This document shows positions 41,947 through 53,709 of a DNA stretch of 64,000 bases, one piece after another. The notes below the pieces were generated by a model. That model searched no databases and was not told where the DNA came from. It was given only the letters and a program-made list of their open reading frames with translations. Each line of letters begins with the position of its first letter. The stretch's first letter is position 1. Source of the stretch: a virus. The stretch is taken from positions 90,942 through 154,941 of the IMG/VR virus record IMGVR_UViG_3300044634_004833. One strand, 5' to 3'. The translations under genes and the position numbers were made by a program.

Positions 41947-42081
41947 TCTGCACTTCATAAATACTAATTATGATCTTTGAGTCAAGAAAACCCCCCCTTT
42001 AATACACACAATCAAAAAAATATTTTAATAAATAATTATTAAGTAAAATACATATATGCGGCATAACAAGTGAGGACAAAT

Positions 42082-53379: not shown

Positions 53380-53393
53380 TAATAAAATTTGAA

Positions 53394-53556
53394 CCTTTGA
53401 CCAAAGATATATCGTCAACTACCCCCAGCTAAAGCAGGGAGCTTGTCATTCCAAGTTTCGTGCTGACTTTTAGTCCAGTTCCGGCTTTCAGCCGGAACAC
53501 ACGGAATCTGAAATCAGATTCAACGGACGACATTAGGCTGATTGATGCAGCCCTAT
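53394..53556 (-). ncRNA. putative TnpB-type omega RNA (about 140 nt scaffold plus 3' guide)
   Basis: TTGAAC-N16-TATAAT promoter (53589-53562); several hairpins; ends ...GGGGGTAGTTGAC then flank. Confidence 0.55.
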
Positions 53557-53640
53557 GTTTAATTATAGTGTTGTTTTGTTTAAGTTCAAGAGCCAATTCC
53601 TCCCCCGACTAAAGTCAGGGGGGATTCCTTGGCTCGAAGA
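53414..53640 (-). mobile_element. non-autonomous IS200/IS605-family mini-element (no tnpA or tnpB)
   Basis: Terminal GTCAAC plus hairpin CCCCCAGC-TAAA-GCAGGGAG; second hairpin CCCCCGAC-TAAA-GTCAGGGGG; far boundary approximate. Confidence 0.75.
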
Positions 53641-53658
53641 TCTTGAAAAAGGGGATGC

Positions 53659-53685
53659 CTGAGATAAAAAGTGAGGTATGTCTAG
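53659..53685 (+). promoter_or_regulatory. class A variant CTGAGATAA-N14-CTAG
   Basis: Exact spacing. Confidence 0.7.
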
Positions 53686-53709
53686 TAGGAAAAGAAAAGG
53701 AGGTGCTTT

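What the first reader, a model, noticed from the sequence alone, without database searches (positions are those of the whole stretch)
53394..53640. ORF-less IS200/IS605 mini-element that may express a stand-alone TnpB guide RNA
Seen: about 225 bp bounded by two TAAA-loop hairpins. On the minus strand a TTGAAC-N16-TATAAT promoter fires into AGGGCTGCATCAATCAGCCTAATGTCG, which resembles the RA..NQP.V 3' end of tnpB genes. Hairpins GAATCTGA/TCAGATTC and GTTCCGGC/GCCGGAAC follow, and the unit ends GGGGGTAGTTGAC with flank GATATATCTTTGGTCAAAGG as the would-be guide. Known: TnpB omega RNAs overlap the tnpB 3' end and right end and take their guide from the flank. Inference: a minimal guide-RNA cassette using TnpB/TnpA in trans, able to target element-free sibling phages (homing) or co-opted for regulation.
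Basis: partly seen in the sequence, partly recalled or inferred. Interest (0 to 1): 0.75.

Follow-up and report, generated by a model that had tools for sequence, protein, structure and literature searches.

The report
Gene-less TnpB guide-RNA mini-transposon in phage
A 229-base jumping element in a large freshwater phage has lost its nuclease gene but keeps both transposon ends, a promoter and most of the guide-RNA scaffold of the TnpB nuclease encoded 143 kb away on the same contig; sister phages still carry the uninterrupted site its guide would direct TnpB to cut, and elements of this kind are already described.

Summary
Window 53414-53642 (minus strand) is a 229-bp ORF-less IS200/IS605-family mini-element of the PATE type.

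- **Cognate element:** its left end (98% over 53 nt) and right end (93% over 41 nt) match an intact tnpB-only element at the start of the same 155-kb phage contig. That element encodes a 367-aa TnpB with intact RuvC motifs.
- **Boundaries:** sister phages 95-97% identical in the flanks carry the empty site. This fixes the borders to the base: insertion 3' of TTCAA, no duplication. The empty allele reads TAM plus a 20/20 match to the flank-derived guide.
- **RNA:** the element has a TTGAAC-N16-TATAAT promoter followed by three helices shared with six tnpB-linked copies and three other ORF-less copies. 94% of pair cells are kept and 7 pairs show compensatory changes. The apex of the long-range helix is expanded.
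- **Caveats:** the element lacks one 5' helix of the native scaffold. No TnpA was found, and expression could not be tested.
- **Rfam:** a weak HEARO hit on the opposite strand reflects a shared transposon right end, not an IscB RNA.

ORF-less omega-RNA elements acting in trans are already published, and this scan has noted similar cases in other phages. This is a new member of a known kind.

The parts
53414..53642 (-). Whole ORF-less IS200/IS605-family mini-element (PATE), 229 bp
   Evidence: Absent as one block from the empty alleles L028, L029 and L031, whose flanks are otherwise 95-97% identical. The 3-nt junction ambiguity (GAT) is resolved by seven other right-end junctions and four other left-end junctions.
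53643..53647 (-). Target motif / TAM TTCAA, immediately 5' of the left end
   Evidence: The same pentamer flanks the left end at two other, independent insertion sites of the tnpB element (L016/L019, L018); a fourth site has TTCAC (L044).
53590..53642 (-). Left end: terminus GATCTTC plus a 46-nt imperfect hairpin (53590-53635)
   Evidence: 98% identical over 53 nt to the left end upstream of the full-length tnpB in L016, L018 and L019. Contigs L012 and L014 break inside it, as expected of a repeat.
53562..53589 (-). Sigma-70-like promoter TTGAAC-N16-TATAAT; predicted start near 53554-53556
   Evidence: 10 of 12. It sits where the full-length element has its own TTGAAA / TATAAT promoter between left-end hairpin and tnpB start. 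Function is inferred.
53535..53553 (-). Stem-loop A (6 bp, loop CATCAAT), a remnant of the last codons of tnpB
   Evidence: Aligns with the tnpB 3' end. Three of its six pairs show compensatory changes across the family.
53524..53532 (-). 5' strand of long-range helix B
   Evidence: Pairs with 53444-53453. Kept in 96.7% of cells but almost invariant, so there is no covariation evidence.
53454..53523 (-). Apical expansion of helix B: three perfect hairpins inside a short closing stem; tnpB-linked copies have a single hairpin here
   Evidence: Its 3' part (…ACGAAAC before helix B) is shared with the ORF-less elements L043 and L045.
53444..53453 (-). 3' strand of helix B
   Evidence: Invariant in all ten family members, including a TnpB only 77% identical and two GC-rich ORF-less elements.
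53421..53442 (-). Right-end hairpin (helix C)
   Evidence: Four of nine pairs covary. It may be constrained as a DNA hairpin for TnpA as well as an RNA helix.
53414..53421 (-). Right-end terminus TAGTTGAC
   Evidence: Identical terminus in L040, L041, L042, L043, L044, L045 and L020, each followed by unrelated flank.
53394..53413 (-). Right-end flank, the 20-nt guide portion of a read-through omega RNA
   Evidence: In the empty alleles this sequence directly follows TTCAA. It has no other match with up to 4 mismatches in the 155-kb record.

Best explanation
Window 53414-53642 is a non-autonomous, protein-less derivative of a tnpB-only IS200/IS605-family (IS1341-type) element that lives in this lineage of large freshwater phages. 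Read on the minus strand it consists of: the left end with its hairpin; a sigma-70-like promoter; about 135 nt of TnpB omega-RNA scaffold (stem-loop A, long-range helix B with an expanded apex, right-end hairpin C); and the right-end terminus. Transcription running out of the right end would add the flank as a guide. The proposed mechanism has three steps. (1) The RNA is made from the internal promoter. (2) It is bound in trans by the 367-aa TnpB encoded 143 kb away on the same contig, whose own element has near-identical ends, the same TAM and the same conserved scaffold blocks. (3) The complex cuts any copy of this intergenic site that lacks the element (TTCAA followed by the 20-nt guide match), whether that copy is a donor joint left by excision or the genome of a co-infecting sister phage. 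Repair from the filled copy then restores or spreads the element, so it behaves as a guide-only hitch-hiker on TnpB. Shown: identity as a mini-element; exact borders; TAM; homology and conserved structure of the scaffold; a cognate intact tnpB in the same genome; natural targetable alleles. Inferred: transcription; TnpB loading despite the missing 5' helix; cleavage; homing; and the original insertion by an unidentified Y1 TnpA.
For: Homology to the resident tnpB 3' end and right end on the minus strand. Left end 98% identical to the left end of the full-length element. TnpB carries OrfB_IS605 and Cas12f1-like_TNB domains, aligns with solved TnpB/Cas12f structures, and keeps the DLG, LED and HAD motifs. 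Empty alleles give base-exact borders without duplication. TTCAA lies at three independent left junctions. Structure: 94.2% of pair cells kept against 28-50% when partners are slid, 7 pairs with double changes, 0-1 of 500 shuffles reaching the observed value on four of five measures but 298 of 500 on 'further pair types'. MFE folds of all copies are congruent. The family model scores the mini at 84 bits, E 4e-19. The promoter sits so that the RNA starts at stem-loop A. Smaller relatives of about 50 and 150 bp keep only the ends and one omega remnant has decayed stems (L039). Transposon ends alone therefore do not require the scaffold, yet here it is intact. The element family is mobile: TnpBs of 77-100% identity sit at six different right-end flanks. 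Published precedent: PATEs that encode omega RNAs (PMC10055086) and stand-alone omega RNAs working in trans (PMC10691335).
Against: There is no expression data. The match between guide and empty site follows automatically from how the element inserts, so it is not independent evidence that the RNA is used. The tnpB-linked copies have a further 13-bp helix just 5' of stem-loop A, with three compensatory pairs and unusually high nucleotide identity inside the coding region. The mini-element lacks this helix, so its scaffold may be incomplete for this TnpB. Its apical insert is found in no tnpB-linked copy, so its true partner could be another TnpB lineage. The variant of stem-loop A it carries also occurs in tnpB-linked copies (L020, L040) and may simply be inherited. 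All six filled assemblies are 100% identical, which gives no read-out of selection. The promoter match alone is at chance level. No TnpA was found.
Confidence: 0.62

Rival explanations
1. It is an inert relic. The stretch is a genuine ORF-less IS605-family mini-element, but its RNA is not made or cannot load TnpB. It persists only as neutral or selfish DNA, possibly moved by a TnpA, and the scaffold has not yet had time to decay.
For: It lacks the 5' helix present in all tnpB-linked copies. Other ORF-less derivatives in this phage group have no scaffold or a decayed one. All filled copies are identical. The promoter match is not significant alone. There is no expression data.
Against: All three shared helices and the three private hairpins are perfectly or almost perfectly paired, whereas L039 shows what decay looks like. 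The interior has diverged from the resident element while the functional blocks stayed 93-100% identical. The near-consensus promoter is placed exactly at the first helix. The related ORF-less elements L043 and L045 keep a structured interior with 9 compensatory pairs.
Confidence: 0.3
2. It is an IscB-type (HEARO) omega RNA on the plus strand, transcribed by read-through from the upstream DUF1281_C gene, with its guide at the 5' end.
For: An Rfam HEARO hit on the plus strand at 53414-53542, 26.4 bits, E 0.002. Local genes are on the plus strand, so read-through into the right end is likely.
Against: The score is far below the family threshold of 83 bits, and 91 model positions are missing. The right ends of tnpB-linked copies give the same weak hit (13.5 and 21.4 bits), so the hit follows the transposon end. 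IscB scaffolds are known to derive from the transposon right end read on the other strand (PMC10055086). No IscB RRXRR domain was found in the 155 kb. The homology to a tnpB 3' end and the promoter are on the minus strand.
Confidence: 0.03
3. It is a domesticated guide RNA used for regulation (TldR-like) or for attacking a host or rival target rather than for homing.
For: Its own promoter and its position 16 nt upstream of a repeated promoter-like motif at 53659.
Against: The resident TnpB keeps its catalytic motifs. The guide has no second match with up to 4 mismatches in 155 kb. The guide is simply the insertion flank.
Confidence: 0.03

Closest known systems
PATE-like, protein-less IS200/IS605 elements that encode omega RNAs (Geobacillus stearothermophilus; Meers et al. 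2023, PMC10055086)
   Same: Both transposon ends are kept, there is no ORF, an omega-RNA scaffold abuts the right end, TnpB (and TnpA) must come from other copies, and the TAM lies at the left junction.
   Different: This one sits in a large lytic-type phage genome rather than a bacterial chromosome. It has its own near-consensus promoter directly behind the left-end hairpin. The scaffold is shortened at the 5' side and expanded at the apex of one helix. No TnpA is seen in the sequenced part.
Stand-alone omega RNAs of OMEGA systems, reported to work in trans with compatible effectors (Altae-Tran et al. 2021, as summarised in PMC10691335)
   Same: A mobilised omega-RNA locus without effector or transposase, in the same genome as an effector-bearing locus with matching ends.
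   Different: Trans activity is not shown here. The natural empty target alleles are documented in sister phages.
IS1341-type (tnpB-only) IS605-family elements and the ISDra2 TnpB/omega-RNA paradigm (homing on the donor joint)
   Same: The parent element on this contig is tnpB-only. Its omega RNA overlaps the tnpB 3' end and right end, the guide comes from the right flank, and a 5-nt TAM lies 5' of the target.
   Different: The finding itself has no tnpB. TAM TTCAA is inferred from junctions, not assayed.
HEARO RNA (Rfam RF02033), the IscB omega RNA
   Same: The first roughly 45 positions of the model (terminus, C-rich/G-rich hairpin with a UAAA-type loop, next small hairpin) match the complement of this right end.
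   Different: Opposite strand, 26 bits against an 83-bit threshold, most of the model missing, and no IscB. The resemblance is to a shared kind of transposon end.
Homing endonuclease genes and marker exclusion in T4-like phages (by analogy only)
   Same: The predicted outcome is that a sister phage lacking the element is cut at the empty site and repaired from the filled copy.
   Different: Specificity would come from an RNA guide, and the nuclease is encoded elsewhere. This is untested.

Membership tests
IS200/IS605-family ORF-less derivative (PATE) | Left and right ends with subterminal imperfect hairpins matching those of a protein-coding family member | tested here: met
   Left end 98% over 53 nt and right end 93% over 41 nt to the tnpB element of the same phage and its relatives.
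IS200/IS605-family ORF-less derivative (PATE) | Insertion 3' of a short conserved target motif, without target-site duplication and without terminal inverted repeats | tested here: met
   Filled and empty alleles compared. TTCAA lies at three independent left junctions and TTCAC at a fourth.
IS200/IS605-family ORF-less derivative (PATE) | No protein-coding gene inside | tested here: met
   Only TTG/GTG-started frames of 50-55 aa lie inside the 229 bp, one of them the frame of the tnpB remnant. The TnpB search finds nothing here.
IS200/IS605-family ORF-less derivative (PATE) | A Y1 (HUH) TnpA able to mobilise it | tested here: inconclusive
   PF01797 is absent from this 155-kb record and three related records. 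However, the records are 3-31% complete and the host is unknown.
TnpB omega RNA (reRNA) | Same strand as tnpB, overlapping its 3' end and the right end | tested here: met
   It aligns on the minus strand with the last 12 or so codons plus the 43-nt 3' region of tnpB at G000:C1:1051-1151.
TnpB omega RNA (reRNA) | Conserved secondary structure supported by covariation | tested here: met
   Three helices, 94.2% of cells paired, 7 covarying pairs, slid controls 28-50%. Caveats: helix B is invariant, helix C doubles as a DNA hairpin, and there are only ten related sequences.
TnpB omega RNA (reRNA) | Complete scaffold as in effector-linked copies | tested here: not met
   A 13-bp helix 5' of stem-loop A, present and partly covarying in six tnpB-linked copies, is missing. 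Whether it is needed is unknown.
TnpB omega RNA (reRNA) | Guide taken from the right flank; target preceded by the TAM in the empty site | tested here: met
   The empty alleles L028, L029 and L031 read TTCAA plus 20 of 20. This holds by construction for any insertion of this family.
TnpB omega RNA (reRNA) | Transcribed and bound by TnpB; directs DNA cleavage | not testable with these tools
HEARO / IscB omega RNA (RF02033) | Score at or above the Rfam gathering threshold | tested here: not met
   26.4 bits against 83.
HEARO / IscB omega RNA (RF02033) | Adjacent or co-resident IscB/IsrB gene | tested here: not met
   There is no RRXRR (PF14239) match in the 155-kb record, though the record is incomplete.

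The most novel reading that the evidence does not exclude
Guide-only elements may be a long-lived lineage of their own rather than short-lived deletion products. They would be hyperparasites of TnpB that keep only the ends, a promoter and a remodelled scaffold. The window's element shares its scaffold-core variant with two roughly 330-bp ORF-less elements from GC-rich contigs (L043, L045), and those two conserve about 250 nt of structured RNA with compensatory changes. In phages such elements would act as RNA-guided gene drives and exclusion weapons against sister phages that lack them.
Probability: 0.3. Interest if true: 0.6.

Novelty: new member of a known kind. Interest (0 to 1): 0.35.

Why it matters
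This is a compact natural test system for RNA-guided homing between phages. One contig holds the nuclease gene and a separate 229-bp guide cassette, and public assemblies hold near-identical sister phages with the uncut target. It also shows how far an omega-RNA scaffold can be remodelled in nature: the 5' helix is lost and a helix apex is expanded by about 40 nt. If the RNA is active, that is useful for designing minimal TnpB guides. The principle of ORF-less omega-RNA elements acting in trans is already published, so the value lies in the phage setting and the clean filled/empty allele pair, not in a new mechanism.

Tried and rejected
- **Rfam, whole window at gathering threshold:** only two tRNAs.
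- **HEARO hit on the plus strand:** rejected as an IscB RNA.
- **INPHARED phage records:** no DNA match.
- **IMG/VR:** no relatives of the flanking 239-aa and 199-aa proteins. Neither the filled nor the empty junction was found. L009 was a chance 18-mer match in a coding region.
- **Species-representative genomes:** no right-end pattern and no close TnpB relative, so no host lead.
- **TnpA (PF01797):** not found in this or three related records.
- **Second TnpB-like gene (406 aa, G000:C1:58031-59251):** only about 30% identical with different ends, so not the likely partner.
- **Off-target search for the guide:** nothing.
- **Family RNA model:** no further copy in this record.
- **Terminator after the guide:** none convincing was found.

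Full report
**Setting.** The window is bases 90942-154941 of a 154,941-bp IMG/VR virus record (CheckV completeness 31%, 33% GC), so it comes from a large phage of which about a third is in hand. Contigs carrying identical genes come from lake and other freshwater-type metagenomes.

**Observation.**
- The region folds far better than shuffled sequence: z -6.8 on the plus strand and z -4.3 for the proposed 162-nt minus-strand RNA.
- The C-run/G-run hairpins with a four-base loop occur only three times in the whole record: the two in the finding and one next to a tnpB gene.
- The promoter TTGAAC-N16-TATAAT (53589-53562, minus) scores 10 of 12. Sites at the scan's threshold are as frequent as in shuffles, so only its position carries weight.

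**What it is.** A DNA search of the record found a second copy of the 40 nt next to the right-hand hairpin at the very start of the contig.
- That copy lies directly behind a 367-aa ORF (G000:C1:5-1108) with Pfam OrfB_IS605 and Cas12f1-like_TNB domains. The ORF aligns with solved TnpB/Cas12f structures and keeps the three RuvC acidic motifs.
- On the window's minus strand, 53553-53414 aligns with the last 12 or so codons of this tnpB plus its 43-nt 3' region. Two blocks are nearly identical and the middle differs.
- The record starts at the tnpB start codon, so its left end had to be read from other assemblies carrying the identical protein (L016, L017) and from IMG/VR relatives (L018, L019).
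- There, a 46-nt imperfect hairpin and its 7-nt terminus precede a TTGAAA / TATAAT promoter and the ATG. The same left end, 98% identical over 53 nt, forms window 53642-53590.
- The finding is therefore a derivative of this tnpB-only element with both ends and without the gene.
- Several assemblies break exactly inside this left end: L012 and L014 break there, and G000, L041 and L042 start at the tnpB ATG. That is what a repeat does to assemblers.

**Borders, target motif and guide.** A look-up of the exact downstream 73-aa protein returned sister phages in which the gap between the DUF1281_C gene and that gene is 101 nt instead of 331 nt.
- Alignment shows one clean 229-bp block missing in L028, L029 and L031. 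Their flanks are 95-97% identical to the window's.
- A 3-nt junction ambiguity is resolved by other copies. All right ends stop at TAGTTGAC (terminal A in two) before unrelated flanks. All left ends begin GAT... after TTCAA (three independent sites) or TTCAC (one site).
- On the element's top strand the empty site reads TTCAA followed by the 20 nt at 53413-53394. That is a 5' TAM plus a perfect target for a guide read out of the right end.
It also follows automatically from the insertion chemistry, so it is not independent evidence that the RNA works.
- Two other alleles are not targetable. L032 has a different deletion. L024-L027 and L030 carry a 126-aa gene there. The insertion site spans the junction left by loss of that gene.
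- All filled assemblies (six samples) are 100% identical to the window.

**RNA structure.** MFE folds of the window copy, six tnpB-linked copies and the ORF-less L043/L045 agree on three helices:
- stem-loop A, with loop CATCAAT;
- a long-range helix B;
- the right-end hairpin C.

On a ten-sequence alignment, 94.2% of pair cells are standard pairs against 28-50% when partners are slid. Seven pairs show double changes (three in A, four in C). Shuffles reach the observed value in 0-1 of 500 runs for four of the five measures; the fifth, 'further standard pair types', was reached in 298 of 500.

Helix B never covaries, but its 3' strand is invariant even in a TnpB only 77% identical and in GC-rich relatives. 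In tnpB-linked copies helix B is capped by one hairpin. In the window it is capped by a 70-nt insert of three perfectly paired hairpins. The 3' part of that insert resembles L043/L045 rather than the resident element. A covariance model of the family scores the window copy at 84 bits and finds no third copy in the record.

**A caveat from the native RNA.** The six tnpB-linked copies have a further 13-bp helix immediately 5' of stem-loop A.
- It shows three compensatory pairs.
- It lies in a stretch of coding sequence whose nucleotide identity (up to 100% in 20-nt windows) exceeds what 77-93% protein identity would predict.
- The mini-element lacks this helix, and its predicted transcript starts right at stem-loop A.
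- From general knowledge of ISDra2-type omega RNAs, 5' parts are often dispensable. That was not tested for this family.

**Family context.**
- TnpBs of 77-100% identity sit at six different right-end flanks, so the family has moved recently.
- Besides the window's element, the same ends occur on roughly 50-bp single-hairpin elements (L036, L037, part of L039).
- They also occur on a roughly 150-bp element without scaffold (L008:1196-1345).
- They occur on a remnant with decayed stems (L039).
- They occur on two roughly 330-bp ORF-less elements with a long, conserved, structured interior and nine compensatory pairs (L043, L045).
- Ends alone therefore suffice for persistence, which makes the intact scaffold plus promoter in the window more likely to be kept for a reason.

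**The Rfam hit.** The only Rfam signal is HEARO, the IscB omega RNA, on the opposite strand: 26.4 bits against a threshold of 83, with 91 model positions skipped.
- The right ends of tnpB-linked copies give the same weak hit.
- Meers et al. state that IscB scaffolds derive from the transposon right end with the guide on the 5' side (PMC10055086).
- The hit thus reflects a shared type of transposon end read on the other strand.
- No IscB domain is present in the record.

**Mechanism proposed.**
1. The internal promoter makes an RNA of about 135 nt that runs into the flank.
2. The resident TnpB binds it in trans.
3. The complex cuts TTCAA-plus-target sites, meaning donor joints after excision or element-free sister phages during co-infection.
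4. Recombinational repair from the filled copy restores or spreads the element.

This is the published TnpB homing model applied to a guide-only passenger. I put 0.62 on a working guide cassette, 0.30 on an inert relic, and a few percent each on an IscB-type plus-strand RNA and on regulatory co-option. For the last of these, TnpB looks catalytically intact and the guide has no other target.

**Novelty.** PATEs that encode omega RNAs needing TnpB in trans are described (PMC10055086). Stand-alone omega RNAs were reported to function in trans (PMC10691335). This scan has also noted comparable gene-less omega-RNA elements in other phage genomes, which I did not re-test. The case is a clean new member of a known kind. 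Its particular points are the phage setting, the filled/empty allele pair and the remodelled scaffold.

**Limits.**
- No TnpA was found.
- The host is unknown.
- Covariation rests on ten related sequences.

Noticed in passing
G000:C1:5-1108 (outside the window; L002:5-1108): An intact tnpB-only IS605-family element sits at the very start of the record. Its promoter's -10 box ends only 6 nt before the ATG, so the tnpB mRNA may be leaderless or nearly so (L016:2040-2095).
   Followed up: partly
G000:C1:58031-59251 (outside the window; L006:691-1911): A second TnpB-like gene (406 aa, Cas12f1-like_TNB domain) is only about 30% identical to the first, and its ends do not match the finding.
   Followed up: partly
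window 41972-42000 (+): A degenerate left-end fragment (GATCTTTGAGTCAAG... followed by a C-run) has no matching 3' arm. It is probably a dead remnant of the same element family.
   Followed up: partly
L043:3265-3590 (-) and L045:3064-3395 (-): Two roughly 330-bp ORF-less elements from GC-rich contigs share the window's right-end terminus and scaffold core. They conserve about 250 nt of structured interior with 9 compensatory pairs, which may mark a guide-only lineage with a full-length scaffold.
   Followed up: partly
L036:1501-1551 (+), L037:1495-1545 (-), L039 (-) about 1404-1450, L008:1196-1345 (-): Micro-elements of about 50 bp (left-end start, one hairpin, right-end-like terminus) and a roughly 150-bp PATE without scaffold occur in sister phages. 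They are inserted after TTAA or TTAC rather than TTCAA.
   Followed up: partly
window 53380-53413 with 53643-53660; L024:2081-2461: The insertion site spans the scar of a lost 126-aa gene of unknown family. That gene is present in a more distant lineage (L024-L027, L030) and was removed by a different deletion in L032.
   Followed up: partly
window 53659-53690 (+): A copy of the repeated CTG(C/A)GATAA-N14-CTAG motif that precedes many genes of this array lies 16 nt beyond the left end. The element was inserted between a stop codon and this motif without disturbing either.
   Followed up: no
L002:1105-1467 (-): A 120-aa minus-strand ORF reads through the right end of the tnpB element, so its last 15 or so codons are transposon-derived. 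The insertion probably replaced the original C-terminus.
   Followed up: no
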